Source of the DNA: a virus
Virus record (IMG/VR): IMGVR_UViG_3300044616_001452
Strand: one strand, 5' to 3'
Length of the DNA stretch: 64,000 nucleotides
Below, piece after piece: positions 43,917-53,306 of this stretch. The translations under genes were made by a program, and so were the position numbers. Position 1 is the stretch's first letter. Each line of letters opens with the position of its first letter. The notes beneath the pieces are model-generated. The model made no database searches and was not told where the DNA came from. It worked only from the letters and a program-made list of their open reading frames with translations.

Positions 43917-44048
43917 ATGGAAACATACTTGACAATGACAACTTTTACTGCCTTTGCTTTGGGTGCCTTTCTTGGTGCACTAGTTGGAAGGTTGGTAACA
44001 TTTTGTCTCATGTCAGTATGTTTCCTTTTCTTATTGTTTAAGCTATGA
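43917..44048 (+). CDS. Small hydrophobic membrane protein (43 aa, not in ORF track)
   Basis: METYLTMTTFTAFALGAFLGALVGRLVTFCLMSVCFLFLLFKL; first ORF after a strong promoter; ATGA overlap with the next gene. Confidence 0.6.
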   Translation: METYLTMTTFTAFALGAFLGALVGRLVTFCLMSVCFLFLLFKL

Positions 44049-44236
44049 ATACAAAAGATCAACCAATTAAAATGCGCAATCGCTTTAATTTGACGGATGT
44101 TTATTACACATTAGCGCACTGGCCGTCTAAAGAAATTGATGGTGTTTTGTTTCTACCTGTAGTAAAAAATTATCCTTCAAATCAAAAACAACCTTTACAT
44201 TATATCCGAAAAGATTCTTTGGAAAAAACTAAATGA
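44045..44236 (+). CDS. Hypothetical protein
   Basis: 63-aa ORF overlapping both neighbours. Confidence 0.6.
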   Translation: MNTKDQPIKMRNRFNLTDVYYTLAHWPSKEIDGVLFLPVVKNYPSNQKQPLHYIRKDSLEKTK

Positions 44237-45012
44237 AAATTGCACTTGCATCTGACGTTCATCTGGAATTCGGTACTACATCATTCAATAACACTGATAA
44301 TGCAGATGTTCTTATTTTATCGGGTGATATTTGTGTCGCTAACAATTTTCATCCTACAGATAAAAAATTTTTTCGTGAATGTTCTGAGCGTTTTCCAAAT
44401 GTGATTTATATCATGGGAAACCATGAACACTACAATGGTGATTATACACTGACCGAAAATCTTCTTCGTGAAGAGTTGGAAGAATTTACAAATATTCATC
44501 TGCTTGAAAAGCAAACGGTTGAGATCAATGGCTACACTTTTATTGGTGCTACTCTTTGGACCGACATGAACAAAAACGATCCTAATACTTTGTGGCATGT
44601 TAGCCGTGTAATGAACGATTTTCGTATTATTCGTAATAGTGGAGCGATTGAAGATCGAGAAAAACTTACTCCAATGTTTGTGTATAATGAACATGTGAGT
44701 ACAATGCACTATATCAAGAGTGTCATTGACGCTAACCCTGAAGGTAAGTTCGTAGTTGTTGGGCATCATGCACCATCTAAGAAGTCAGTGAAACCTCGCT
44801 ATCATGGCGATATTCTTACGAACGGTGCTTATTCTTCGGACTTGTCGGAGTTTATTCTTGACCACCCACAAATCAAACTATGGACGCATGGGCACACTCA
44901 TGATGTTTTTGATTATATGATCGGTGATACTCGTATATTGTGTAATCCTCGTGGATATGCTCTATACGAAGAGCGCGCTGATGAATTTGAATTGCTTTTT
45001 ACGGAGATTTAA
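44233..45012 (+). CDS. Calcineurin-like metallophosphoesterase
   Basis: SDVHLE, SGDI, GNHEHY, GATLWTD, HHAP, WTHGHTH, CNPRGY. Confidence 0.9.
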   Translation: MKIALASDVHLEFGTTSFNNTDNADVLILSGDICVANNFHPTDKKFFRECSERFPNVIYIMGNHEHYNGDYTLTENLLREELEEFTNIHLLEKQTVEINGYTFIGATLWTDMNKNDPNTLWHVSRVMNDFRIIRNSGAIEDREKLTPMFVYNEHVSTMHYIKSVIDANPEGKFVVVGHHAPSKKSVKPRYHGDILTNGAYSSDLSEFILDHPQIKLWTHGHTHDVFDYMIGDTRILCNPRGYALYEERADEFELLFTEI

Positions 45013-45013
45013 A

Positions 45014-45295
45014 ATGCCTATTTTTATGATTGATACTGTTCACACTTTTCGCCATAAGTGGCTGATTGAAGCAGAGACATTGGAACACGCTTACGATGAA
45101 ATGGTGATGACTGAACATGATCGTAAGTTTGATGAACTGACACAAAAATGTCTCGGTGAAATGATTATTGATGGGCGTGAAGTGACACGTGAAGAAATTG
45201 ATAAAGTAGTTGCAACTCTTAAAGAGGACAAGGATGAATGGGTAAATCATTGGCTTGTGGATAAATGTATTCATAAAGTCGATTATTCTAAATAA
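45014..45295 (+). CDS. Hypothetical protein
   Basis: ATG 45014 after GGAG RBS. Confidence 0.6.
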   Translation: MPIFMIDTVHTFRHKWLIEAETLEHAYDEMVMTEHDRKFDELTQKCLGEMIIDGREVTREEIDKVVATLKEDKDEWVNHWLVDKCIHKVDYSK

Positions 45296-45300
45296 TATTT

Positions 45301-45375
45301 CTGGCCGTCGTTCAATGGATAGGACAGCATTCTTCTAAAGTGCGAATGGGGGTTCGATTCCCTCCGGCCGGGCCA
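45301..45375 (+). tRNA. tRNA-Arg(UCU)
   Basis: CTGGCCG/CGGCCGG acceptor, loop CTTCTAA, TTCGATT T-loop, encoded CCA. Confidence 0.93.
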
Positions 45376-45392
45376 AACAATTTCGAGGTTTT

Positions 45393-45851
45393 GTGAAAGA
45401 AAAATTTATTAATGCATATATGAAGGTAGCCGAAACGTTTGCCGAATTGTCATCGGCTCGGCGCCTTCATGTTGGCGCGATTATTGTAAAAGATGATCGT
45501 ATCATTTCCATTGGTTATAATGGAATGCCCTCTGGTTGGGACAATGATTGTGAGGATTTAGTTGTCTATAGAAAAGAAATCGAACCTGGCATTTTTAACA
45601 ACGAATATAAACATGAATGGAAAACAAAACCCGAAGTCCTTCACGCTGAGACGAATGCAATTGCTAAGTTAGCTAAATCTACCGAATCTGGAAACGGCTC
45701 AACTTTATTTGTTACGCATGCACCTTGTATGGATTGTGCAAAACTAGTTTATCAAAGTGGCATTAGTTCAGTTTACTATAGAAATACTTACCGTTCCGAA
45801 GATGGTATTAATTTTTTAAATGCTGCTGGAGTGAACGTAAACAGAGTATAA
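45393..45851 (+). CDS. cd: dCMP deaminase
   Basis: VGAIIVKD, GYNGMP, HAETNAI, PCMDC. Confidence 0.92.
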   Translation: MKEKFINAYMKVAETFAELSSARRLHVGAIIVKDDRIISIGYNGMPSGWDNDCEDLVVYRKEIEPGIFNNEYKHEWKTKPEVLHAETNAIAKLAKSTESGNGSTLFVTHAPCMDCAKLVYQSGISSVYYRNTYRSEDGINFLNAAGVNVNRV

Positions 45852-45908
45852 TTCACCAGATGAAAAATCCATTGCTCTAAATAAAATGGAGCATACCTGG
45901 AGGATTAT

Positions 45909-46424
45909 ATGCATCTCAGAGTGATCAATAGTCCAGAAAAAAATTTCACCCCATTTGTAAGAAAAGCCTCACTTTTTTATGCGGAATATCTGATGCCAAG
46001 TAAAAGGCTCAGAGATAACGTGCATCTAAAAATAAAGTTCAATAAAAAAAGTAACTATTGGGGTTTGGCATACATTGATGATAATAATGATGCTAAAAAA
46101 CCTAGAAAGTTTGTAGTAGAATTACATCCTTGGATCGGCGCAAGAGAAATTTTTATAACCTTAGCACATGAAATGGTGCACATTCGACAATATGTCAAGG
46201 GTGACACCAATGAAAATTTATCCAAATGGAAAGGTGAAAGAATCAATTCAGAAGTGATGGATTATTACCATCATCCATGGGAAATGGAAGCTTATAGTTT
46301 AGAAACTTGTCTATATACCAAGTTCGCTATAAAAGAACAATTATGGTATGTTTTTAAAGATATAGGTAATCCAGAATTACCAATCAAAGAAGAAAAAATA
46401 AAATGGAGAAGTAAACCAATTTAA
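45909..46424 (+). CDS. Putative zinc metallopeptidase-like protein
   Basis: TLAHEMVHIRQ (HExxH) and PWEMEA; late-promoter-like TCTAAATA upstream. Confidence 0.65.
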   Translation: MHLRVINSPEKNFTPFVRKASLFYAEYLMPSKRLRDNVHLKIKFNKKSNYWGLAYIDDNNDAKKPRKFVVELHPWIGAREIFITLAHEMVHIRQYVKGDTNENLSKWKGERINSEVMDYYHHPWEMEAYSLETCLYTKFAIKEQLWYVFKDIGNPELPIKEEKIKWRSKPI

Positions 46425-46425
46425 T

Positions 46426-47169
46426 ATGAAAACTGCTTTATTATTGACAGGTAATCCAAGATTTTCAAAAGACTTCGATTCACAGATACATAATCTAAAA
46501 AATAGCGAAATAGATTGGTATATTTGTTTTTGGAAAAGAGAAGAAGGTTTTGATCCAAAAATATCCAAAAATTGGCATGTGAAAAATTCTTGGCAAGTGT
46601 TGGAAAAAATAAAACCTTTTCTTCCACCTGGGCATAGAATTAAATATATTGAACTTCTCGATCCTAACGATTACTCCGTTTTGCCTTACGATTATCAAGA
46701 CTATTACAGTAATCCAATAAACATCTGGCAACAATATAAAATATTACAATATTGTGATAGGTGGAGAAGAGAATTAGATTCTTATGATTTAGTTATTCGT
46801 TCAAGAACAGATTTAGGGCTTAGTGAAAATATCGATTTAAAATTGGCGTACAGTTGTTTGTCTAAAGATTCGAAGGTCATTTATACACCTAATAATCAAA
46901 GAAACGGCTATATAGCAAATGTCGGTGGTTATCAAACCGGATTTTGTGACCAATTTGCAATAGGGTTACCACACATAATATCGGCATATTGTGATTCTAT
47001 AGATAAATTTCATGATTTGTATATGTCAGGCACAAAATACAATCCGGAATATCTTTTACAAACTGCACTGATGAACGAAGGTATAACTTGGCCTCCAACT
47101 TCTTTTGAGATAATAAGAGAAAATATACACTGGCAACCTATTGACCATGGAAAATGGGCGAACGTGTAA
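46426..47169 (+). CDS. Hypothetical protein, possible glycosyltransferase-like; paralog of 40403-41146
   Basis: ALLLTGNPR, YDLVIRSRTD, CDQFAIG. Confidence 0.55.
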   Translation: MKTALLLTGNPRFSKDFDSQIHNLKNSEIDWYICFWKREEGFDPKISKNWHVKNSWQVLEKIKPFLPPGHRIKYIELLDPNDYSVLPYDYQDYYSNPINIWQQYKILQYCDRWRRELDSYDLVIRSRTDLGLSENIDLKLAYSCLSKDSKVIYTPNNQRNGYIANVGGYQTGFCDQFAIGLPHIISAYCDSIDKFHDLYMSGTKYNPEYLLQTALMNEGITWPPTSFEIIRENIHWQPIDHGKWANV

Positions 47170-47235
47170 ATATTTTTATAAAAAATTAATAAAAAGCCTA
47201 TATACCTGTATATTAAATTTTTTACGGAGATTTTT

Positions 47236-47340
47236 GTGTTAGTCTTATCCAAACCTACCTTTACAACATGCGAGTATCGCCCAAGCATTGCCGGCGATAA
47301 TCTGTCATGGATACAAGGTACAAGGGGTTTGATGAGTTAA
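47236..47340 (+). CDS. Putative attenuator leader peptide (34 aa, GTG start; not in ORF track)
   Basis: GGAG 6 nt upstream of GTG; MLVLSKPTFTTCEYRPSIAGDNLSWIQGTRGLMS*; 3' end contains anti-terminator AGGGGTTTGA. Confidence 0.7.
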   Translation: MLVLSKPTFTTCEYRPSIAGDNLSWIQGTRGLMS

Positions 47341-47366
47341 AGTTCCAAAAAGTTCCAAAAATTCTC

Positions 47367-47398
47367 AAACCCCTAGATCGAAAGACTAGGGGTTTTTT
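47367..47398 (+). terminator. Intrinsic terminator upstream of the tRNA array (candidate attenuator)
   Basis: AAACCCCTAG-a-TC-GAAA-GA-CTAGGGGTTT-TTT. Confidence 0.88.
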
Positions 47399-47401
47399 GT
47401 T

Positions 47402-47474
47402 GTTGTATAAAAACAACAGTGTATTGCCAAGACAAGCAAATGCTACTATAATACACATATACGTTCTTTAAAAA
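47402..47474 (+). promoter_or_regulatory. tRNA-array promoter 1 with upstream GTTG-N8-CAAC box and downstream boxA-like site
   Basis: GTTG-TATAAAAA-CAAC (47402-47417); TTGCCA-17-TATAAT (47424-47452); GTTCTTTAAAAA (47463-47474). Confidence 0.8.
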
Positions 47475-47489
47475 TTAGATGTAACTTGT

Positions 47490-47563
47490 TGGGGTGTGGT
47501 GAAATGGTATCACACAGGATTTTGATTCCCGTATTCTTGGTTCGATTCCAAGCACCCCTGCCA
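47490..47563 (+). tRNA. tRNA-Gln(UUG)
   Basis: Cloverleaf, loop TTTTGAT, CCA; U1-U72 mismatch. Confidence 0.9.
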
Positions 47564-47570
47564 AAATTTA

Positions 47571-47658
47571 GGAAGCGTGGTCGAGTGGTCTATGGCGCCA
47601 GTCTTGAAATCTGGAGGTCCGAAAGGGTCCGTGAGTTCGAATCTCACCGCTTCCGCCA
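47571..47658 (+). tRNA. tRNA-Ser(UGA)
   Basis: GGAAGCG/CGCTTCC, loop CTTGAAA, long V-arm, CCA. Confidence 0.93.
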
Positions 47659-47666
47659 AATTTAAT

Positions 47667-47756
47667 GGAGTGATCCCATAATGGTATTGGAGCGGATTGC
47701 TAATCCGTCGGTTTGCGAAAGCAGGCTTCTGGGTTCGAGTCCCAGTCACTCCGCCA
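47667..47756 (+). tRNA. tRNA-Ser(GCU)
   Basis: GGAGTGA/TCACTCC, loop TTGCTAA, long V-arm, CCA. Confidence 0.93.
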
Positions 47757-47758
47757 AC

Positions 47759-47853
47759 GGTAGGTAGCACTGGTGTGCGGCTGAGTCTTATAAGCTCGGG
47801 AGATCGGTCAGATGGGCTGAAACGGAAGGGTTCGAATCCCTTACCTACTACCA
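47759..47853 (+). tRNA. tRNA with UAU anticodon (Ile) and atypical long variable arm
   Basis: GGTAGGT/ACCTACT acceptor, loop CTTATAA, AAGGG-TTCGAAT-CCCTT T-arm, A73, CCA. Confidence 0.8.
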
Positions 47854-47860
47854 AATACAT

Positions 47861-47938
47861 GCACAGGTGGCAGAGAGGCCCAATGCAAGAGTCTGCAAAA
47901 CTCTAAAGCCGTCGGTTCGAATCCGACCCTGTGCTCCA
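47861..47938 (+). tRNA. tRNA-Cys(GCA)
   Basis: GCACAGG/CCTGTGC, loop CTGCAAA, U73, CCA. Confidence 0.93.
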
Positions 47939-48054
47939 GTTGCAATAAAACAACGTTGTAAAAATACAACAAAATCGAAGTTGACAACGGTACCAATACC
48001 TGTATAATTGATTCTGTTGTCGATGCAGTAGTGATAACAAACGATCTTTAAAAA
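47939..48054 (+). promoter_or_regulatory. tRNA-array promoter 2 with tandem GTTG-N8-CAAC boxes and boxA-like site
   Basis: Boxes at 47939-47954 and 47955-47970; TTGACA-16-TATAAT (47981-48008); GATCTTTAAAAA (48043-48054). Confidence 0.78.
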
Positions 48055-48069
48055 AAATAGCTGTTCAAT

Positions 48070-48144
48070 GCACGGTTCGTCTATCGGTTAGGACGCTAGC
48101 CTTTCACGCTGGAAAGACGGGTTCGATTCCCGTACCGTGTACCA
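48070..48144 (+). tRNA. tRNA-Glu(UUC)
   Basis: GCACGGT/ACCGTGT, loop CTTTCAC, CCA. Confidence 0.93.
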
Positions 48145-48266
48145 TATTGAAGCACATTAGAATCTGTAAAAAGATCCAGGGTTGGTACACCTCATGACTT
48201 TCGGCCGTGCTGAGTTTACGGAAACAAGCGGAAGCATGCATAGACCGTAGTGTGTTTCAATATGGT
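48141..48266 (+). ncRNA. Candidate ncRNA closed by an 18-bp stalk (copy 1)
   Basis: ACCATATTGAAGCACATT pairs with AGTGTGTTTCAATATGGT. Confidence 0.6.
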
Positions 48267-48267
48267 A

Positions 48268-48429
48268 ATAGGGTTCTGTCCCGTAAGGGAATGGTAACGA
48301 AAGTGCCTTCCAATATGTTCGGTGGCCAACGAGCATAGATGCGGAATGTATGAGTAGAGAGGTGAACGAAAGTTTGCGATAAAGCCCCGGTAGGCCTAAG
48401 CATGTAATGTGTACAAAGTACATCCCTGT
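48268..48429 (+). ncRNA. Candidate multi-hairpin ncRNA
   Basis: Several GNRA-capped hairpins (TCCC-GTAA-GGGA, GTGAAC-GAAA-GTTTGC) inside a closing ATAGGG/CCCTGT helix; no credible ORF. Confidence 0.5.
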
Positions 48430-48439
48430 ATCAATTTTC

Positions 48440-48526
48440 GGGTGCGTAGCCAAATGGTTGACGGCAGCAGACTGTAAATCTGTGACATAAGAAACGCTGG
48501 TGGTTCGAATCCATCCGCACCCACCA
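48440..48526 (+). tRNA. tRNA-Tyr(GUA)
   Basis: GGGTGCG/CGCACCC, loop CTGTAAA, V-arm, CCA. Confidence 0.93.
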
Positions 48527-48528
48527 AT

Positions 48529-48602
48529 GCGGGTATAACTTAGTGGTAAAGTAGCTGGCTTTTAACCAGCAAATCCGAGTTCGATTCTCGGTGCCCGTAC
48601 CA
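48529..48602 (+). tRNA. tRNA-Lys(UUU)
   Basis: GCTGG-CTTTTAA-CCAGC, CCA. Confidence 0.93.
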
Positions 48603-48606
48603 AATT

Positions 48607-48683
48607 GCCCTCTTACTCCAATTGGTAGAGAGGACGGTCTTAGAAGCCGTAGAGTCTCAGTTCGAATCTGAGAGAGGGCACCA
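48607..48683 (+). tRNA. tRNA-Leu(UAG) with short variable loop
   Basis: GCCCTCT/AGAGGGC, loop CTTAGAA, A73, CCA; 77 nt. Confidence 0.88.
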
Positions 48684-48779
48684 TATTGAAGCATTCTAAA
48701 CTGGACGCAGGATCGGGGAAAGTCAAAAGCGGGTTGATCACCACAAGTAGACTGGAGATCAAGAGTGCTTTAATATGGT
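48680..48779 (+). ncRNA. Candidate ncRNA closed by an 18-bp stalk (copy 2)
   Basis: ACCATATTGAAGCATTCT pairs with AGAGTGCTTTAATATGGT. Confidence 0.6.
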
Positions 48780-48851
48780 TCCATAGTATATCGGCGAGTA
48801 TAGCGCCCTGTCACGGCGCAGGAACGGGTTCGAATCCCGTTGGGACCGCCA
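48777..48851 (+). tRNA. tRNA-Asp(GUC)
   Basis: GCGCC-CTGTCAC-GGCGC, G73, CCA. Confidence 0.93.
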
Positions 48852-48853
48852 AT

Positions 48854-48927
48854 ACCTGATTAGCTCAAAGGTAGAGCACCCGGCTGATAACCGGAAGACA
48901 CTGGATCGTTACCAGTATCAGGTACCA
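48854..48927 (+). tRNA. tRNA-Ile(GAU)
   Basis: ACCTGAT/ATCAGGT, loop CTGATAA; atypical T-loop ATCGTTA; CCA. Confidence 0.88.
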
Positions 48928-48933
48928 GATTTA

Positions 48934-48982
48934 GTTGTTTATATACAACAGTATTGCCAAGTTCGATATATAGTTATATAAT
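48934..48982 (+). promoter_or_regulatory. tRNA-array promoter 3 with GTTG-N8-CAAC box
   Basis: GTTG-TTTATATA-CAAC (48934-48949); TTGCCA-17-TATAAT (48954-48982). Confidence 0.8.
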
Positions 48983-49051
48983 GTTTTTCAAGTCGGGAGA
49001 CTTTAAGAAGTACGCCGTTTCCTTCGGGTAACCCTGTATACGGTAAGCAGG

Positions 49052-49250
49052 ATTTTTATTGTTGTCGTTTTGGAAAATACCTGTGAACGCAGGTTAGTGA
49101 ATCTGTCAATGTGTGGTTAATTCGAATAGACCACGTATACAGTTGTTATCAAGTGAAGACCTTTTGGACGCATTAGGAATAAGCTTGGTCGTTAAAATCA
49201 AACGCCAGTACGGTGAAGGCTGGCTATAACGAAACGACAACAATAAAAAT
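49052..49250 (+). ncRNA. Candidate ~200-nt structured ncRNA closed by a perfect 19-bp stem
   Basis: ATTTTTATTGTTGTCGTTT (49052-49070) / AAACGACAACAATAAAAAT (49232-49250) with internal hairpins. Confidence 0.65.
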
Positions 49251-49251
49251 T

Positions 49252-49326
49252 GGGCTGCTAGTGATAATGGGAGCACGCCGCCTTTGCACGGCGGAGGTTG
49301 GAGTTCGATCCTCCAGCGGTCCACCA
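49252..49326 (+). tRNA. tRNA-Ala(UGC)
   Basis: G3-U70 pair, loop TTTGCAC, CCA. Confidence 0.93.
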
Positions 49327-49332
49327 AGTTTC

Positions 49333-49406
49333 GCCCCTATAGTTAAATGGTATAACAGTTGACTTGTAATCATCAATTTCCAGTTCGATTCCGGGTGGGG
49401 GCACCA
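49333..49406 (+). tRNA. tRNA-Thr(UGU)
   Basis: GCCCCTA/TGGGGGC, loop CTTGTAA, CCA. Confidence 0.9.
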
Positions 49407-49414
49407 ATTTTAAG

Positions 49415-49492
49415 CCGAGTGTAGGATAGTCCGGTCATTCCGCCTGCTTTGGGAGCAGGAAATCGTGTGTTCGAATCACACCACTCGGACCA
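49415..49492 (+). tRNA. tRNA-Pro(UGG)
   Basis: CCGAGTG/CACTCGG, loop TTTGGGA, CCA. Confidence 0.93.
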
Positions 49493-49498
49493 GTTTAT

Positions 49499-49574
49499 TC
49501 CGGAGTAGCACAGAGGTAGTTGCGTCTGACTGTTAATCAGAATGTCGTTGGTTCGATCCCAGCCTCCGGAGCCA
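49499..49574 (+). tRNA. tRNA-Asn(GUU)
   Basis: TCCGGAG/CTCCGGA, loop CTGTTAA, CCA. Confidence 0.93.
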
Positions 49575-49580
49575 GTTGAA

Positions 49581-49655
49581 GGTAATGTAGCATAACGGTA
49601 GTGCGCCTCCTTCATACGGAGAAAAGTGTTGGTTCAACTCCAACCATTACCACCA
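49581..49655 (+). tRNA. tRNA(CAU), probably elongator Met
   Basis: GGTAATG/CATTACC, loop TTCATAC, CCA. Confidence 0.85.
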
Positions 49656-49667
49656 AAGGAGATTATT

Positions 49668-50555
49668 ATGTTGTTGGATGAAATTATTTCTGTTCCATAT
49701 ACTACTCATCCTAAGATGACGAAAAATAAAGGCAACATTTTCAACAAAACTCCAAATTTAGATTATATTCGTTCTAAAGAAAAAGAGTTAAAACAATTTG
49801 CTCCTGATTTGTGTGCCGAGACATTTGAAAATATCTCAAAGCAACTTGTTCGAAAAAGTTCAATCTACTGTGGTGTACCACAAACAGATTCAATGATTGA
49901 ATTTGCAATGAATTTTGAAGAAGATGTTGCAATTATGCATAACGGAAAATTATCAGGAATTTGTTTCTGTTTTCCAAGCAGTTGGATTCCTAAAAAACGC
50001 ATAGGTATGTCTCTAGAAGATATTCATTCACAAGTTGCGGATAATGAAAGACTTATAAAAATGAGCGCAAAAATTGCAAGCACAATGGCTGATCCTGTTT
50101 TAGGTTCTTTTCGAAGATATGTATGGACGATTACAAATAATCCTGAATTGAGTAATCATCCAAAAAGAAAAAGTATGATTGTTCCTAAAAGTTTAGATGA
50201 TTTGTATTTTAGACTTGAAACTCAAACAACTGCACCTATAGGTGACTGTGTGACAAGTTTGTTCTTTGTTAAAGTTCAAGTAATTCCTCTTAGTCATGTC
50301 TGGGGAAGTTACGGTAAACTAATTACTAACAGTGTAAATTCTATGAGTGATGCAATCTTGGAATACAAAAATCTAAAGCATATTAAAACGGTCCTTAGTT
50401 CAATGGATCAGAACACCGGGCTACGAACCCGTGAGGTTGGGAGTTCGAATCTCTCAGGACCGGCCAACCATAATTTGAAAGATGAGTATTATGATATTCT
50501 TACAACTGAAGATTGTTTAGTTAAAGATTCTCCCAGTGGTGTAAAGGCAACATAA
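49668..50555 (+). CDS. DUF3445 / heme-dependent oxidative N-demethylase alpha-subunit-like protein; frame runs through tRNA-Arg(ACG) into tRNA-Trp
   Basis: EEDVAIM, CFCFPSSW.P..RIG..L..IH..V, R..WTI, YFRLETQT motifs; AGGAG RBS before ATG 49668. Confidence 0.7.
   Translation: MLLDEIISVPYTTHPKMTKNKGNIFNKTPNLDYIRSKEKELKQFAPDLCAETFENISKQLVRKSSIYCGVPQTDSMIEFAMNFEEDVAIMHNGKLSGICFCFPSSWIPKKRIGMSLEDIHSQVADNERLIKMSAKIASTMADPVLGSFRRYVWTITNNPELSNHPKRKSMIVPKSLDDLYFRLETQTTAPIGDCVTSLFFVKVQVIPLSHVWGSYGKLITNSVNSMSDAILEYKNLKHIKTVLSSMDQNTGLRTREVGSSNLSGPANHNLKDEYYDILTTEDCLVKDSPSGVKAT
50389..50466 (+). tRNA. tRNA-Arg(ACG)
   Basis: CGGTCCT/AGGACCG, loop CTACGAA, CCA. Confidence 0.9.
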
Positions 50556-50603
50556 GAGTCTCCAAAACTTTTGATTGCGGTTCGAATCCGTACTGGGAGG
50601 CCA
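50530..50603 (+). tRNA. tRNA-Trp(CCA)
   Basis: CTCCCAG/CTGGGAG, loop CTCCAAA, G73, CCA. Confidence 0.9.
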
Positions 50604-50621
50604 TTTTATCAGAGGTGGATT

Positions 50622-51092
50622 ATGTACAACAAAAAAATTAATCTAGAAGAAGTTAAATCGTTTATTGAAAGCTGTGGTCCCAATACCAAAGTTTATCTTG
50701 GTTGTGACTCGGAAAAAGTTAAAATGAATGGTGTTTGGCATGCTGATTATATTATAGCCATTGTTGTGCATATGAATAGCAAAAATGGTTGTAAAATTTT
50801 CGGGCAAATCACTCGTGAACGTGACTATGATCAAGCTCGCAATAAGCCACGTATGCGTCTGATGAATGAAGTTTATAAAGTTGCAGAAATGTATCTGAAT
50901 CTTGCGGCAATCATTGATGTGGATATTGAAGTACATCTTGACATTAACCCAAATGAAGAGTATAATTCAAATATCGTAATTAATGAAGCAATTGGCTATA
51001 TAAAAGGCATGTGTAATGTTGTTCCTCTTGTAAAACCAAATGCTTTTGCTGCGTCTTATGCAGCAGATAGATTGAAGAGTCTTGCAGCATAG
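50622..51092 (+). CDS. RNase H-like protein, YkuK/DUF458 family
   Basis: VYLGCDS, RLMNEV, EVHLDIN, VKP.AFAASYAAD; ATG 50622 after GAGG. Confidence 0.8.
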   Translation: MYNKKINLEEVKSFIESCGPNTKVYLGCDSEKVKMNGVWHADYIIAIVVHMNSKNGCKIFGQITRERDYDQARNKPRMRLMNEVYKVAEMYLNLAAIIDVDIEVHLDINPNEEYNSNIVINEAIGYIKGMCNVVPLVKPNAFAASYAADRLKSLAA

Positions 51093-51098
51093 AATATA

Positions 51099-51173
51099 GC
51101 GGGTATGATGTTAACGGTAGCATGACAGCCTTCCAAGCTGATCGAATCGGTTCGAATCCGATTACCCGCTCCA
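51099..51173 (+). tRNA. tRNA-Gly(UCC)
   Basis: GCGGGTA/TACCCGC, loop CTTCCAA, U73, CCA. Confidence 0.93.
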
Positions 51174-51179
51174 AAATTT

Positions 51180-51256
51180 GCGGCTATGGTGTTTAACGGT
51201 TAGCACGAGACCTTGCCAAGGTTTAGGTTCCAGTTCGAATCTGGATAGCCGCTCCA
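51180..51256 (+). tRNA. tRNA-Gly(GCC)
   Basis: GCGGCTA/TAGCCGC, loop TTGCCAA, CCA. Confidence 0.93.
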
Positions 51257-51262
51257 ATCAAT

Positions 51263-51337
51263 GGTGTCTATGGTGTAGTGGAAGCATTACTCTCTGTGAA
51301 AGAGTAGGTACGAGGTCGGTACTCGTTAGACACCCCA
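51263..51337 (+). tRNA. tRNA-His(GUG) with encoded G-1
   Basis: G-1:C73, loop CTGTGAA; atypical T-loop GTCGGTA. Confidence 0.9.
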
Positions 51338-51338
51338 G

Positions 51339-51412
51339 GCTTCGTTAGTTTAATGGTAGAACACCGCCCTTACAAGACGGTTACGGCAGTTCGATTCTGT
51401 CACGAAGCACCA
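51339..51412 (+). tRNA. tRNA-Val(UAC)
   Basis: GCTTCGT/ACGAAGC, loop CTTACAA, CCA. Confidence 0.9.
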
Positions 51413-51416
51413 ATTT

Positions 51417-51492
51417 GCCGCTTTAGCTGATGTGGTCATAGCAACGGTCTGAAGAGCCGTGGAATCTGGTTCGATTCCAGAAGGCGGTACCA
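51417..51492 (+). tRNA. tRNA-Phe(GAA)
   Basis: Loop CTGAAGA (G37), CCA. Confidence 0.9.
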
Positions 51493-51493
51493 T

Positions 51494-51522
51494 TTGACAA
51501 GTTACATTTAATTTGATATAAT
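51494..51522 (+). promoter_or_regulatory. Perfect-consensus sigma70 promoter (tRNA promoter 4)
   Basis: TTGACA-17 nt-TATAAT. Confidence 0.85.
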
Positions 51523-51532
51523 GTTTTATAAT

Positions 51533-51620
51533 GCGGATGTGGCGAAATTGGTGAAACGCAGCAGACTTAAAATCTGCCACATTAGAAACACTGCGGGTTC
51601 GAATCCCGCCATCCGCACCA
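51533..51620 (+). tRNA. tRNA-Leu(UAA)
   Basis: GCGGATG/CATCCGC, loop CTTAAAA, V-arm, CCA. Confidence 0.93.
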
Positions 51621-51628
51621 AGTTTAAA

Positions 51629-51707
51629 GGGCCTCTAGCTCATGCATGGTTAGAGCAGCGAACTCATAATTCGTTGGTGCGGGGTTCGACTCCCCGGGGG
51701 CCCACCA
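51629..51707 (+). tRNA. tRNA(CAU), probably Ile2 (lysidine-type)
   Basis: GGGCCTC acceptor typical of Ile2, loop CTCATAA, CCA. Confidence 0.8.
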
Positions 51708-51715
51708 GATTCAAT

Positions 51716-51789
51716 CGCGGGTTAGAGAAACGGTATCTCAGAAGCCTCATAAGCTTCAGTTGTTGGTTCGACTCCAGCACCCGCTACCA
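51716..51789 (+). tRNA. tRNA(CAU), initiator fMet-like
   Basis: CGCGGG 5' end, C1-U72 mismatch, loop CTCATAA, CCA. Confidence 0.85.
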
Positions 51790-52302
51790 CTTTCCTGCTT
51801 CTCTACCAAAATCAAAAAACCATACACAAAATCGTATTGCAACTGTTAATGTAATAATAAGAATTATTCCCCAAAAAGTATTTTCAATAAATCTCTTTCT
51901 TCGAATTGCTTGATCACGAATCATTCTTTCTCTTTTTTCACGTATGTCTCTTCTTAAATGAAGAAACTGACTGTAACCTTCTGCACCAAGATGTTGAAGT
52001 TCCCCATAGTAAAACATATGATATATCTCTGCTTCCATTTCACGGAGTTTTTGTTGTGCAATGATAATATCAAATGCTTCGGCTGTTTCGCTTTGCCCAA
52101 ATCCTATCTTTTCAAATAAACCTAATTTTCTCTCACCCGAATCATTTTTACTATTGTTTATAAGTTGTTGTAATTGCCCAGCAGCATCAGCCCATTTTGA
52201 AAGCTGTCGATAAACACCTTCAATTTCTTGCCCAACTTTAACCGCAGCCTTTAAGCCATTAAAGGCGGCTGTCACTGTTCCCATTAGAGTTATTGGATCC
52301 AT
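51784..52302 (-). CDS. Hypothetical helical protein with C-terminal transmembrane segment
   Basis: MDPITL..V.AAF..LK N-terminus, coiled-coil, C-terminal hydrophobic helix. Confidence 0.65.
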   Translation of the reverse strand: MDPITLMGTVTAAFNGLKAAVKVGQEIEGVYRQLSKWADAAGQLQQLINNSKNDSGERKLGLFEKIGFGQSETAEAFDIIIAQQKLREMEAEIYHMFYYGELQHLGAEGYSQFLHLRRDIREKRERMIRDQAIRRKRFIENTFWGIILIITLTVAIRFCVWFFDFGREAGKW

Positions 52303-53306
52303 CAGTTTACCTTTACAAGGTTATTCCTAAAAATACGCCATGCATTCTCCCAACTCCATTCTTTACTCTTTTCAAGTACAACATCTCGGTTTAAATTTAA
52401 ACAATCATCCACTGCGATTGAAAGATTGTCGTTCATATATCCAGTTAGTCCTTGTGATACTATGTCTTTAGGTCCTCTACATGGATATGCCGCTATAGGT
52501 GTTCCGCATGCCATAGCCTCAATCATGACGATACCAAATGTTTCCCATTTGCTCGGAAAAACAAATACATCAGCATTAGCATAATAATATGCTAAGTCTA
52601 AACCCGTTTTAAAGCCAACGAATTCAACGTCTGGATAATTCTTTTCATATACATCTCGCATAGGTCCATCACCCACCATAATCTTGTGAGAATTCGGATA
52701 ATCGATATTAAAGAAATCTTCTAGATTTTTTTCTTTACTAACTCTACTCACACATACAAGCAATTTTTTATCATCAGACTTGTTGCGCTGACTAGGATTA
52801 AATATTGCCCTATCAACTCCTCTTGTCCATGAAATTAGCTCACCATCAAACCCATTTTCGCGTAGATGCTTTACCATCGTATCTGTAGTAGTTAATACTT
52901 TTCCCGAATGCTTGTGAAACCAACGTATTAAAGGCCAAGTAAGGGCTTCAGGAATTCCAAAAAGTTTTCTAAGTCCTTCCGGAAAATTAGTGTGATAAGC
53001 AGTATTGTACCGATAACCGCGTTTGTCAAGATATTGTCGAGCACACAAACCAAGAGGACCCTCGGTGGCGATATGGATATGATCCGGAGATATCTCCTCA
53101 ATCTTCTCGCCGATTTTCCTGGGATAGGCAATCTTGACTTCGTTGTAGCCAGGGCAATCAATGTAGTTGAACCACCCGGGATTAAGATATACAAAACGAT
53201 AACCGTCCAAAAGCGCACAAGCCTCGATATTTTTGTAGGTTGTGACCACTCCATTTATTTGATCCTGCAAGTTGTCTGTAATAATTAGTACAATTTTTTC
53301 AGACAT
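52302..53306 (-). CDS. GT4-family glycosyltransferase (Agt/MgtA-like diacylglycerol glycosyltransferase)
   Basis: QINGVVTT, HIATEGPLG, YHTNFPE, VSRVSKEKNL, ETFGIVMIEAMACGTP. Confidence 0.88.
   Translation of the reverse strand: MSEKIVLIITDNLQDQINGVVTTYKNIEACALLDGYRFVYLNPGWFNYIDCPGYNEVKIAYPRKIGEKIEEISPDHIHIATEGPLGLCARQYLDKRGYRYNTAYHTNFPEGLRKLFGIPEALTWPLIRWFHKHSGKVLTTTDTMVKHLRENGFDGELISWTRGVDRAIFNPSQRNKSDDKKLLVCVSRVSKEKNLEDFFNIDYPNSHKIMVGDGPMRDVYEKNYPDVEFVGFKTGLDLAYYYANADVFVFPSKWETFGIVMIEAMACGTPIAAYPCRGPKDIVSQGLTGYMNDNLSIAVDDCLNLNRDVVLEKSKEWSWENAWRIFRNNLVKVN

What the first reader, a model, noticed from the sequence alone, without database searches (positions are those of the whole stretch)
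48141..48779. Twin 18-bp stalks that swallow tRNA CCA ends and enclose unrelated cargo RNAs
Seen: directly after tRNA-Glu and tRNA-Leu(UAG), the same 14-mer ACCATATTGAAGCA (beginning with the tRNA's own ACCA) pairs with a downstream arm ending AATATGGT. Each forms an 18-bp helix, with G-U pairs partly at different positions in the two copies, which suggests selection on RNA structure. The loops (about 90 and 64 nt) differ in sequence. In copy 2 the 3' arm also overlaps the first bases of tRNA-Asp. Inference: RNase III-type processing stalks that release small RNAs (antisense sRNAs, antitoxin or crRNA mimics) and/or couple tRNA maturation to their release; a modular sRNA expression cassette.
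Basis: partly seen in the sequence, partly recalled or inferred. Interest (0 to 1): 0.7.

Follow-up and report, generated by a model that had tools for sequence, protein, structure and literature searches.

The report
Swappable stalk-closed RNAs in phage tRNA operon
Between the tRNA genes of this uncultured lake T4-like phage sit two small RNAs clamped by the same 18-19 bp stem; the same stem holds about 200 different exchangeable RNA inserts in the related phage contigs sampled, and what the inserts do is unknown.

Summary
Two helices (48141-48266, 19 bp; 48680-48779, 18 bp) start on the ACCA of tRNA-Glu and tRNA-Leu. They share a 14-nt start, have G-U pairs at different positions, and enclose unrelated 88- and 64-nt interiors. 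The second overlaps tRNA-Asp by 3 nt.

This is not chance. Three scans of IMG/VR gave 201 loci with tRNAs, all with single-strand tRNA clusters, holding 453 such elements (322 distinct). In tRNA-sense orientation G-U outnumbers A-C 519:68. All ten variable stem positions covary beyond 1000 shuffles.

The interiors fall into 195 families. They are swapped between near-identical flanks, including at this window's first stalk, and the largest family has covarying helices.

In related phages, the intervening segment of permuted tmRNA genes, which is removed on maturation, is closed by the upper part of this stem.

Best reading: an RNA-level excision and clamp module that releases stem-capped accessory RNAs while freeing the neighbouring tRNA ends. 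A host double-strand endonuclease such as RNase III probably takes part. No expression data were available, so cleavage and cargo function are inferred.

There was no Rfam match, no arm match above chance in the cultured-phage collection, and no paper found. Earlier agents of this scan reached similar readings on other genomes.

The parts
47981..48008 (+). Sigma-70-type promoter that drives the transcription unit holding both stalks
   Evidence: 12 of 12 consensus match. The next promoter-like site on this strand is at 48954-48982, and no terminator-like site lies between them.
48070..48144 (+). tRNA-Glu(UUC). Its discriminator A and CCA (48141-48144) are the first four bases of stalk 1.
   Evidence: ARAGORN; Rfam 56.9 bits.
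48141..48159 (+). Stalk 1, 5' arm (19 nt)
   Evidence: Inverted repeat I4; fold; family consensus.
48160..48247 (+). Cargo 1: an 88-nt interior found only in this window. Near relatives carry unrelated interiors of 45 and 91 nt at the same site.
   Evidence: Identity to four relatives breaks at 48162 and resumes at 48249. A third cargo occupies the same site in L195. No homologue among 319 distinct elements of 200 nt or less.
48248..48266 (+). Stalk 1, 3' arm (19 nt)
48267..48439 (+). Non-tRNA spacer of about 170 nt between stalk 1 and tRNA-Tyr. It is hairpin-rich with GAAA loops and is co-transcribed. Its function is unknown.
   Evidence: 97.7% identical in relative L001; folds into several hairpins; no Rfam match.
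48607..48683 (+). tRNA-Leu(UAG). Its ACCA (48680-48683) begins stalk 2.
48680..48697 (+). Stalk 2, 5' arm (18 nt)
48698..48761 (+). Cargo 2: a 64-nt interior, identical in four near relatives and absent elsewhere in the sample
48762..48779 (+). Stalk 2, 3' arm (18 nt). Its last 3 nt are the first 3 nt of tRNA-Asp.
48777..48851 (+). tRNA-Asp(GUC). An RNase P cut at its 5' end would make the 3' end of the cargo-2 RNA.
   Evidence: The cut itself is inferred.
49052..49250 (+). A third stem-closed RNA with the same architecture but a different stem sequence: a perfect 19 bp stem enclosing 161 nt. It ends 1 nt before tRNA-Ala.
   Evidence: Inverted repeat I2; fold z = -4.3. It is wholly absent from four near relatives as a clean indel. 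A homologue in L024 has a covaried stem that starts with ACCA.

Best explanation
Each stalk with its interior is one module of a large family of RNA cassettes carried in the tRNA operons of uncultured T4-like phages.

**Proposed mechanism**
1. The module is transcribed with the tRNAs from the promoter at 47981.
2. The constant 18-19 bp helix forms in the RNA. It starts on the ACCA of the upstream RNA and ends at, or a few nucleotides before, the 5' end of the next tRNA.
3. RNase P cuts at the downstream tRNA. A second cut in or at the base of the helix frees the upstream CCA. This second cut is most likely made by a host double-strand-specific endonuclease of the RNase III type, because a stable helix abutting the CCA would otherwise block single-strand endonucleases and 3' exonucleases.
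4. The interior is released as a small structured RNA whose ends are protected by what remains of the stem.
5. The constant arms also act as portable homology, so interiors are exchanged between phages.

**Shown:** the RNA-level helix, its family, its placement relative to tRNA ends, cargo modularity and cargo structure.

**Inferred:** excision, the enzymes involved, stability of the product, and any trans function of the cargo.
For: **The helices are real and robust.**

**The family is large and tied to tRNA clusters.**
- 201 IMG/VR loci with tRNAs were analysed, each with a single-strand tRNA cluster. They hold 453 elements, 322 of them distinct, and 451 of 453 lie within the tRNA span plus or minus 1.5 kb.
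- In five contigs of 144-202 kb, good arm matches occur only as pairs in or next to the region where the tRNA-cluster loci lie.

**The structure forms on the tRNA-sense strand.**
- Stem cells: Watson-Crick 5126, G-U 519, A-C 68, other 83.
- Position 12 has G-U 143 against A-C 5. Position 17 has U-G 248 against A-C 0.
- Ten of ten variable positions are paired more often than in any, or all but one, of 1000 shuffles. This holds with one sequence per cargo family.
- An arm pairs better with its own partner than with the neighbouring element's arm in 133 cases against 13.

**Placement fits processing.**
- 198 of 453 elements share ACCA with a tRNA.
- 132 end no more than 12 nt before the next tRNA, and 47 of these overlap it by 3 nt.

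**The tmRNA link.** In the six loci where ARAGORN finds a permuted tmRNA, the intervening segment begins right after ACCA. It is closed by a helix that in L007 is letter-identical to stalk positions 9-19 and in L095, L037 and L183/L197 is a variant of it. Such segments are absent from mature tmRNA and are cut out by tRNA processing enzymes (PMC11915505, citing Keiler et al. 2000).

**Modularity.**
- 195 cargo families.
- 12 independent swaps at flanks at least 90% identical, and 46 families found in unrelated flanks.
- Breakpoints against four relatives fall at the arms of stalk 1.

**The cargo is under structural selection.** The largest family has five internal pairs with double-sided compensatory changes.

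**Precedent.** T4 rnaC and rnaD, and T5 RNAI, RNAIII, RNAIV and others, are annotated stable RNAs of unknown function inside tRNA clusters. T5 RNAIII and RNAIV also close with terminal stems.
Against: - There are no expression or end-mapping data, so no cut, no enzyme and no stable product has been seen.
- The host is unknown.
- The phages encode no RNase III.
- The helix (18-20 bp) is at the short end for RNase III, and the tmRNA version is only about 11-13 bp.
- The lower 11 bp are almost invariant in sequence. That is more than a generic double-strand nuclease would require, and it points to an unidentified sequence-specific partner or to constraints I have not identified.
- At stem position 9, A-C mismatches (35) outnumber G-U (1). 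Simple helix stability does not predict this.
- More than half of the elements do not touch an annotated tRNA. tRNA maturation therefore cannot be the only role.
Confidence: 0.55

Rival explanations
1. The elements are pure spacers or insulators. The helix only keeps neighbouring tRNAs folding independently and provides a processing site. The interiors are tolerated filler that is degraded after excision and has no function of its own.
For: - Cargo is extremely diverse: 135 of 195 families are singletons.
- Cargo 1 is unique to this window and is replaceable without change to the flanks.
- No motif is shared by all cargos.
- No antisense target was found in the window.
Against: - Cargo families are conserved across phages whose flanks are unrelated (46 families).
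- The largest family keeps its helices through compensatory changes.
- Interiors range from 25 to 161 nt (median 58 nt) and carry their own predicted hairpins. A spacer would need neither.
- Elements also stand in tandem with no tRNA next to them.
Confidence: 0.2
2. The constant stalk is a handle for a dedicated sequence-specific RNA-binding protein. The interiors are displayed modules such as decoys, aptamers or tRNA mimics, for example against tRNA-targeting host defences, in the manner of Y RNAs. Processing is secondary.
For: - The lower 11 bp of the stem are nearly invariant in sequence across about 200 contigs, while everything around them diverges.
- A U-G wobble at position 17 is conserved in 248 of 322 elements, and an A-C occurs recurrently at position 9.
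- 22 of 195 cargo families carry a T-loop-like motif next to the 3' arm, as in tRNA-like domains.
- T5 annotates tRNA-like stable RNAs in the same setting.
Against: - No candidate protein was identified.
- There is no Ro/TROVE gene in five large contigs.
- No Rfam Y RNA or other family matched.
- Neither of the two cargos in this window has a T-loop motif.
Confidence: 0.15
3. This is a DNA-level element: a miniature inverted-repeat transposon, a REP or attC-like recombination site, or a recombination linker like the PeSL cassettes of T4-like phages. The inverted repeats would matter as DNA and the RNA helix would be incidental.
For: - Whole elements and interiors are gained, lost and exchanged between near-identical genomes, with breakpoints at the arms.
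- The palindromic ends are conserved around a variable centre of 25-161 nt.
- Arm variants cluster within genomes, for example in L013.
Against: - Mismatches are strongly strand-biased toward G-U on the transcribed strand (519 against 68). All 201 tRNA-bearing loci carry the elements in the tRNA orientation.
- No tyrosine integrase and no IS200/IS605 Y1 transposase was found in five large contigs, one of them a complete genome.
- No target-site duplication is visible at the window's indels.
- Elements occur nowhere outside the tRNA region.
- Single-stranded DNA hairpins would also favour G-T, so this rival is weakened but not excluded.
Confidence: 0.07

Closest known systems
Stable small RNAs of unknown function in phage tRNA clusters: T4 species 1 and 2 (rnaC, rnaD); T5 RNAI, RNAIII, RNAIV, RNA1, RNA2 and RNA2H
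   Same: - They are non-tRNA RNA genes on the tRNA strand inside the tRNA operon, directly abutting tRNAs.
- Their size is similar, about 100-170 nt.
- T5 RNAIII and RNAIV fold with a terminal stem joining the 5' and 3' ends.
- T4 rnaC has a T-arm next to its 3' strand, like 22 cargo families here.
   Different: - There is no sequence similarity. A BLAST of the region found only tRNA matches.
- The T4 and T5 RNAs each have their own terminal stem.
- Here one nearly invariant 18-bp stem is reused for about 200 unrelated interiors, starts on the ACCA itself, and is exchanged between phages.
RNase III processing stalks (pre-16S and pre-23S rRNA stems; phage T7 early-mRNA sites). Cited from established knowledge.
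   Same: A long helix formed by sequences flanking a transcript segment, placed between mature RNAs of a polycistronic precursor. At 18-20 bp it is close to two helical turns.
   Different: - Cleavage has not been shown.
- The helix encloses the by-product or cargo rather than the major mature RNA.
- The sequence is far more conserved than known RNase III sites need to be.
- Known RNase III stalks do not share bases with a tRNA's CCA.
Intervening segment of circularly permuted (two-piece) tmRNA genes
   Same: It is a segment that begins right after a CCA end, ends a few nucleotides before an RNase P site, and is removed by tRNA-processing enzymes (PMC11915505). In related phages this segment is closed by the upper half of this same stem.
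   Different: The window has no tmRNA gene. Here the module sits between ordinary tRNAs or stands alone, and its helix is 7 bp longer.
Integron attC sites and PeSL shuffling cassettes of T4-like phages (PMC4122927; title and abstract only)
   Same: Arrays of units separated by imperfect palindromes with conserved ends and variable centres. Content is shuffled modularly between related genomes.
   Different: - No integrase is present.
- The stalk contains no promoter or terminator.
- The units are RNA genes, not ORFs.
- The evidence points to a structure on the RNA.
Bacterial Y RNAs (YrlA) and other stem-plus-module scaffolds. Recalled from memory, not tested beyond Rfam.
   Same: A long stem formed by the two ends of the RNA carries a variable, sometimes tRNA-like, module.
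   Different: There is no Rfam Y RNA match and no Ro/TROVE gene in five large phage contigs. The stem sequence is unrelated.

Membership tests
RNase III processing stalk | Uninterrupted or near-uninterrupted double-stranded helix of about two turns | tested here: met
   Copy 1 has 19 bp and copy 2 has 18 bp. Across the family, 18 bp are paired in 97% of cells, position 19 in 81% and position 20 in 49%.
RNase III processing stalk | Staggered double-strand cleavage by RNase III, giving 2-nt 3' overhangs | not testable with these tools
   No RNA run was listed for this sequence. This needs in vitro cleavage or a comparison of rnc mutants.
RNase III processing stalk | An RNase III enzyme is available in the infected cell | tested here: inconclusive
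   There is no PF14622 match in five large phage contigs, one of them complete, so the enzyme would have to come from the host. The host is unknown.
Phage tRNA-cluster stable RNAs (T4 rnaC and rnaD; T5 RNAI, RNAIII, RNAIV) | Non-tRNA RNA gene co-oriented with tRNAs and embedded in the tRNA operon | tested here: met
   Both elements lie between the promoter at 47981 and the next at 48954, on the tRNA strand. No ORF explains them and no Rfam family matches.
Phage tRNA-cluster stable RNAs (T4 rnaC and rnaD; T5 RNAI, RNAIII, RNAIV) | Accumulates as a discrete stable RNA in infected cells | not testable with these tools
   No RNA data were available.
Phage tRNA-cluster stable RNAs (T4 rnaC and rnaD; T5 RNAI, RNAIII, RNAIV) | Sequence homology to the T4 or T5 RNAs | tested here: not met
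   BLASTN of 47900-49300 against 50,697 phage records matched only tRNAs. The arm alone gave only chance-level hits.
Any Rfam 15 family, including self-cleaving ribozymes, Y RNA, tmRNA, GOLLD and ROOL | Covariance-model match | tested here: not met
   No match at E up to 1 over 44000-53000 apart from tRNAs and tRNA look-alikes. None was found on stalk elements of seven related loci at E up to 0.1.
Integron attC / gene cassette | IntI-type tyrosine recombinase in the same genome | tested here: not met
   PF00589 is absent from five large contigs, including a complete 202 kb genome.
MITE / REP (IS200-IS605 or RAYT-associated palindromes) | Cognate Y1 transposase, strand-neutral decay of the repeats, and dispersal over the genome | tested here: not met
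   No PF01797 match. G-U outnumbers A-C 519 to 68 on the transcribed strand. Elements are confined to the tRNA region.
Y RNA / YrlA | Ro (TROVE) partner and a Ro-binding helix; a tRNA-like module | tested here: not met
   No TROVE gene in five phage contigs and no Rfam Y RNA match. T-loop-like motifs occur in only 22 of 195 cargo families and in neither cargo of this window.
Permuted-tmRNA intervening segment | Lies between the CCA of the acceptor piece and the 5' end of the coding piece of a tmRNA gene | tested here: not met
   ARAGORN finds no tmRNA in the window. The relation is a shared helix sequence and shared placement logic seen in related loci.

The most novel reading that the evidence does not exclude
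The constant stem is the handle of an RNA cassette system. A dedicated factor, from host or phage, would recognise its nearly invariant sequence. The tRNA operon would then serve as an expression array for a pan-phage library of hundreds of structurally distinct accessory RNAs. These could be decoys, aptamers or tRNA mimics aimed at host defences or at the translation machinery. They would be traded between co-infecting phages by recombination in the arms, an RNA-gene counterpart of integron cassettes or morons.
Probability: 0.25. Interest if true: 0.85.

Novelty: new variant of a known kind. Interest (0 to 1): 0.62.

Why it matters
Phage tRNA clusters are now studied as counter-defence and translation-takeover devices. 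The non-tRNA RNAs embedded in them have remained without a function since their discovery decades ago (T4 species 1 and 2; the T5 stable RNAs).

This family offers a handle on that question. One recognisable stem marks hundreds of such RNAs across uncultured freshwater T4-like phages, shows that they are under structural selection, and shows that they are exchanged as modules.

If the stem is a defined processing or binding signal, three things follow:
- It would explain how tRNAs whose CCA is buried in a helix are matured.
- It would give a natural, portable scaffold for expressing small structured RNAs.
- It would make the function of the cargos testable by swapping them.

If the cargos are only spacers, the finding is still a tidy example of a conserved processing element, with little wider reach.

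Tried and rejected
- **RNA-seq evidence.** No RNA holder was listed for 45000-52000.
- **Rfam.** No family matched the stalks or cargos.
- **Literature.**
  - Searches for T4 species 1 RNA, stable RNAs of T4-like phages, inverted repeats in phage tRNA clusters, and the arm sequence itself gave nothing relevant.
  - The T4 genome review was not held.
  - The S-CREM1 cyanophage paper lists only Rfam ncRNAs.
  - The SegB paper does not discuss rnaC or rnaD.
- **Cultured phages.** The 3' arm gave only chance-level hits in 50,697 records.
- **Bacterial and archaeal genomes.** There was one hit in 185,579 species genomes: a 1.4 kb contig of a Candidatus Planktophila MAG. It is most likely misbinned phage DNA and is not used as host evidence.
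- **Antisense role within the phage.** The longest complementary matches of cargo 1 and cargo 2 to the rest of the window (9-11 nt) are no longer than for shuffled cargos. The host could not be tested.
- **Shared cargo motif.** No k-mer was enriched beyond shuffles, apart from T-loop-like words in a minority of cargos.
- **Alternative pairing.** Pairing the 3' arm of one element with the 5' arm of the next, which would enclose the tRNA, was rejected 133 to 13.
- **Candidate partner genes in five large contigs.**
  - RNase III, tyrosine integrase, Y1 transposase and TROVE are all absent.
  - The PF04308 RNase H-like gene is present in only 2 of 5 and absent from the complete genome, so it is not an obligate partner.
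- **Self-cleaving ribozyme.** Rejected. The only conserved part is a plain helix with no conserved unpaired nucleotides, and no ribozyme model matched.
Full report
**1. Observation**

The window carries 27 tRNA genes on the + strand. tRNA-Glu ends at 48144 and tRNA-Leu(UAG) at 48683. In both, the discriminator A and CCA are the first four bases of an identical 14-mer (48141-48154 and 48680-48693).

- Copy 1: arm 48141-48159 pairs with 48248-48266. This gives 19 bp, with G-U at stem positions 12 and 17, around 88 nt.
- Copy 2: arm 48680-48697 pairs with 48762-48779. This gives 18 bp, with G-U at positions 9 and 15, around 64 nt. Its last three bases are the first three of tRNA-Asp (48777).
- The helices dominate the predicted folds (z = -4.1 and -5.2; 0 of 200 shuffles as stable). 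They persist when the flanking tRNAs are folded with them.

**2. Setting**

The window belongs to a T4-like myovirus. It encodes tail sheath, portal, scaffold, major head protein, UvsW-type helicase, gp46-like nuclease, DNA polymerase and a replicative helicase. The nearest cultured relatives by major capsid protein are Methylophilales phage Melnitz and the pelagibacter myophages, at about 62-65% identity. The host is unknown.

Three strong sigma-70-type promoters face the tRNA array. Both stalks lie in the unit that starts at 47981-48008 and runs to the next promoter at 48954, with no terminator-like site between. The order is: promoter, tRNA-Glu, stalk 1, a 170-nt hairpin-rich spacer, tRNA-Tyr, tRNA-Lys, tRNA-Leu, stalk 2, tRNA-Asp, tRNA-Ile.

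**3. The stalk defines a large family**

- Of 205 loci analysed, 201 contain tRNA genes, in every case all on one strand.
- A relaxed search in the tRNA-sense orientation (each arm within three substitutions of consensus, arms not required to pair) found 453 elements of 61-200 nt, 322 of them distinct, with one to eleven per locus.
- 451 of 453 lie within the tRNA span plus or minus 1.5 kb.
- In five contigs of 144-202 kb, one of them a complete genome with terminal repeats, good arm matches occur only as facing pairs within one or two short stretches, at most about 10 kb apart, where the tRNA-cluster loci lie. Elsewhere there are only scattered three-mismatch hits at control level.
- The consensus is ACCATATTGAARCACATT ... 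AGTGTGYTTCAATATGGT.
- One scan of 185,579 species genomes found a single 1.4 kb MAG contig.
- The arm alone gives only chance hits in 50,697 GenBank phage records.

The family therefore appears confined to uncultured phages.

**4. The helix is selected in the RNA, or at least on the transcribed strand**

- Over stem positions 1-18 of the 322 distinct elements there are 5126 Watson-Crick, 519 G-U, 68 A-C and 83 other cells.
- The scan pattern allowed all four purine-pyrimidine combinations at position 12. The result is G-U 143, A-U 99, G-C 75 and A-C 5.
- Position 17, which lies outside the pattern, is U-G 248, C-G 49, U-A 19 and A-C 0.
- Double-sided compensatory changes occur at positions 8, 9, 10, 13, 14, 15, 16 and 18.
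- At each of the ten variable positions, the observed number of pairs exceeds all (in one case all but one) of 1000 shuffles of the 3' partners. This also holds with one sequence per cargo family.
- Where neighbouring elements in a locus differ in arm sequence, an arm pairs better with its own partner than with the adjacent element's arm in 133 cases against 13.
- One unexplained detail: at position 9, A-C (35) outnumbers G-U (1).

**5. The interiors are modular and exchanged**

- The 319 distinct elements of 200 nt or less carry interiors of 25-161 nt (median 58) in 195 similarity clusters, 135 of them singletons.
- The same cargo family occurs behind different tRNAs (for example Leu, Lys, Thr and Glu for the largest family) or behind no tRNA. 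Forty-six families occur in pairs of loci whose flanks are unrelated.
- Conversely, twelve independent cases have both 60-nt flanks at least 90% identical but cargos of different families.
- The window is one of these cases. Against four near relatives at 97-98% identity, similarity stops at 48162 and resumes at 48249. A 45-nt interior replaces the 88-nt one, and locus L195 has a third interior at the same site.
- Cargo 2 is identical in those relatives, although the tRNA-Leu gene just upstream differs.

**6. The interiors look like real structured RNAs**

- The largest family (10 variants, about 90 nt) keeps three internal helices, with five pairs showing double-sided compensatory changes. 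Smaller families show the same by eye.
- Twenty-two of 195 families have a T-loop-like motif just before the 3' arm, so the stem continues a T-arm as an over-long acceptor stem. T4 rnaC has the same arrangement.
- No motif is shared by all cargos.
- No Rfam family matches.
- The window's two cargos have no complementarity to the rest of the window beyond chance.

**7. Why I read the stalk as an excision module**

- *Placement.* 198 of 453 elements start on a tRNA's own ACCA. Elements with no tRNA upstream usually still start with ACCA. 132 end within 12 nt of the next tRNA, and 47 overlap it by three bases, so U falls at position -1 of the RNase P site.
- *The tmRNA case.* Six loci carry a circularly permuted tmRNA gene. 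In each, the intervening segment begins directly after the acceptor piece's ACCA and ends 3-4 nt before the coding piece. It is closed by a helix that in L007 is letter-identical to stalk positions 9-19 and in L095, L037 and L183/L197 is a variant of it. This segment is by definition absent from mature tmRNA and is cut out by tRNA-processing enzymes (PMC11915505, citing Keiler et al. 2000).
- *Logic (inference).* Once RNase P has cut at the downstream tRNA, the upstream tRNA remains joined through its CCA to a stable hairpin. That hairpin offers neither a single-stranded RNase E site nor a usable 3' tail.
- *Source of the enzyme.* The phages do not supply RNase III (0 of 5 large contigs), so it would come from the host.

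None of this has been observed. No RNA run could be listed.

**8. Rivals**

- A pure spacer or insulator role for the whole element is weakened by the conservation and covariation of the cargos, but not excluded.
- A dedicated protein handle is suggested by the near-invariance of the lower 11 bp and the fixed U-G. I found no partner. There is no TROVE gene. The RNase H-like PF04308 gene embedded in many of these clusters, including here at 50571-51092, is absent from a complete stalk-bearing genome.
- A DNA-level element is disfavoured by the strand bias, by the uniform orientation, by the absence of integrase and Y1 transposase, and by confinement to the tRNA region. The arms clearly do act as recombination breakpoints, which I take to be a consequence of their repetition.

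**9. Comparison with what is known**

- The nearest known things are the stable RNAs of unknown function in the tRNA clusters of T4 (rnaC, rnaD) and T5 (RNAI, RNAIII, RNAIV, RNA1, RNA2, RNA2H, RNA3, RNAX). T5 RNAIII and RNAIV also fold with terminal stems of 12 and about 9 bp.
- The difference is that here one stem sequence is reused for about 200 interiors, starts on the CCA, and is shared with tmRNA intervening segments.
- A third element in the window (49052-49250; a perfect 19 bp stem of unrelated sequence around 161 nt, ending 1 nt before tRNA-Ala) has the same architecture. It is a clean indel against the relatives. Its homologue in L024 has a stem that has covaried and begins with ACCA. 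Stem-closed inter-tRNA RNAs therefore appear to be a general design in these phages, with this stem sequence the most widespread.

**10. Verdict**

I found no Rfam family and no paper describing the stem. Earlier agents of this scan reached similar conclusions on other genomes, so the scan has found this before on other DNA. I file it as a new variant of a known kind, namely the non-tRNA stable RNAs and processing spacers of phage tRNA operons.

Noticed in passing
window 50571-51092 (+): A 173-aa ORF inside the tRNA cluster matches PF04308 (RNase H-like, formerly DUF458; E 1.4e-17) and phrog_11311. Homologues at 57-64% identity sit inside the tRNA clusters of 12 other stalk-bearing loci. The gene is present in 2 of 5 large contigs and absent from the one complete genome. 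It is a candidate RNA-processing nuclease of unknown role.
   Followed up: partly
window 49052-49250 (+): A third stem-closed RNA: a perfect 19 bp stem of a different sequence around 161 nt, ending 1 nt before tRNA-Ala. It is absent as a clean indel from four relatives that are 98% identical. Its homologue in L024 (77% identity) has a covaried stem that starts with ACCA.
   Followed up: partly
window 48267-48439 (+): A 170-nt non-coding spacer between stalk 1 and tRNA-Tyr. It has several hairpins with GAAA loops and is 97.7% conserved in the near relatives. It has no Rfam match and no homologue in the other loci.
   Followed up: partly
L007 13937-14332, L095 8460-8834, L100 8323-8716, L037 4489-4876, L183 10000-10403, L197 8969-9372 (tRNA-sense coordinates of my script): These related phages encode circularly permuted (two-piece) tmRNA genes. 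Their intervening segments are closed by the upper half of the stalk sequence, directly after the ACCA.
   Followed up: yes
window 48607-48683 versus L001 about 1856-1940: The tRNA-Leu(UAG) upstream of stalk 2 is only 77 nt long in the window, short for a tRNA-Leu. In the 97%-identical relative an unrelated, longer tRNA-Leu(UAG) gene occupies the same position. The right-hand breakpoint lies at the 5' arm of the stalk.
   Followed up: no
window 47759-47853 (+): A 95-nt tRNA with anticodon UAU and a long extra arm. ARAGORN calls it tRNA-Ile. The best Rfam model is tRNA-Sec at 31 bits, below the gathering threshold.
   Followed up: no
window 49626-50555 (+): A 309-aa ORF inside the tRNA array matches PF11927 (haem-dependent oxidative N-demethylase alpha-subunit-like; E 4.6e-20). 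This is an unexpected metabolic gene between tRNA genes. Among the first 48 related loci searched, it was found only in the near relative L001.
   Followed up: no
L013 189-441 (- strand, original locus coordinates): A group I intron match (49.3 bits, gathering threshold 50, E 1.6e-9) on the tRNA strand of a related phage's tRNA cluster.
   Followed up: no
L209 348-421 (CAZQNP010000058.1): This is the only stalk element found in 185,579 species genomes. It lies on a 1.4 kb contig of a Candidatus Planktophila (freshwater actinobacterial) MAG. It is probably misbinned phage DNA but could hint at the habitat or host.
   Followed up: no
L013 380-1320, L009 5160-5660, L026 100-800 (tRNA-sense coordinates): Stalk elements also stand in tandem, separated by GC-richer non-tRNA segments of 60-200 nt. 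Some of these segments contain T-arm-like pieces. These tRNA clusters therefore hold many more unannotated structured RNAs than the stalk cargos alone.
   Followed up: partly
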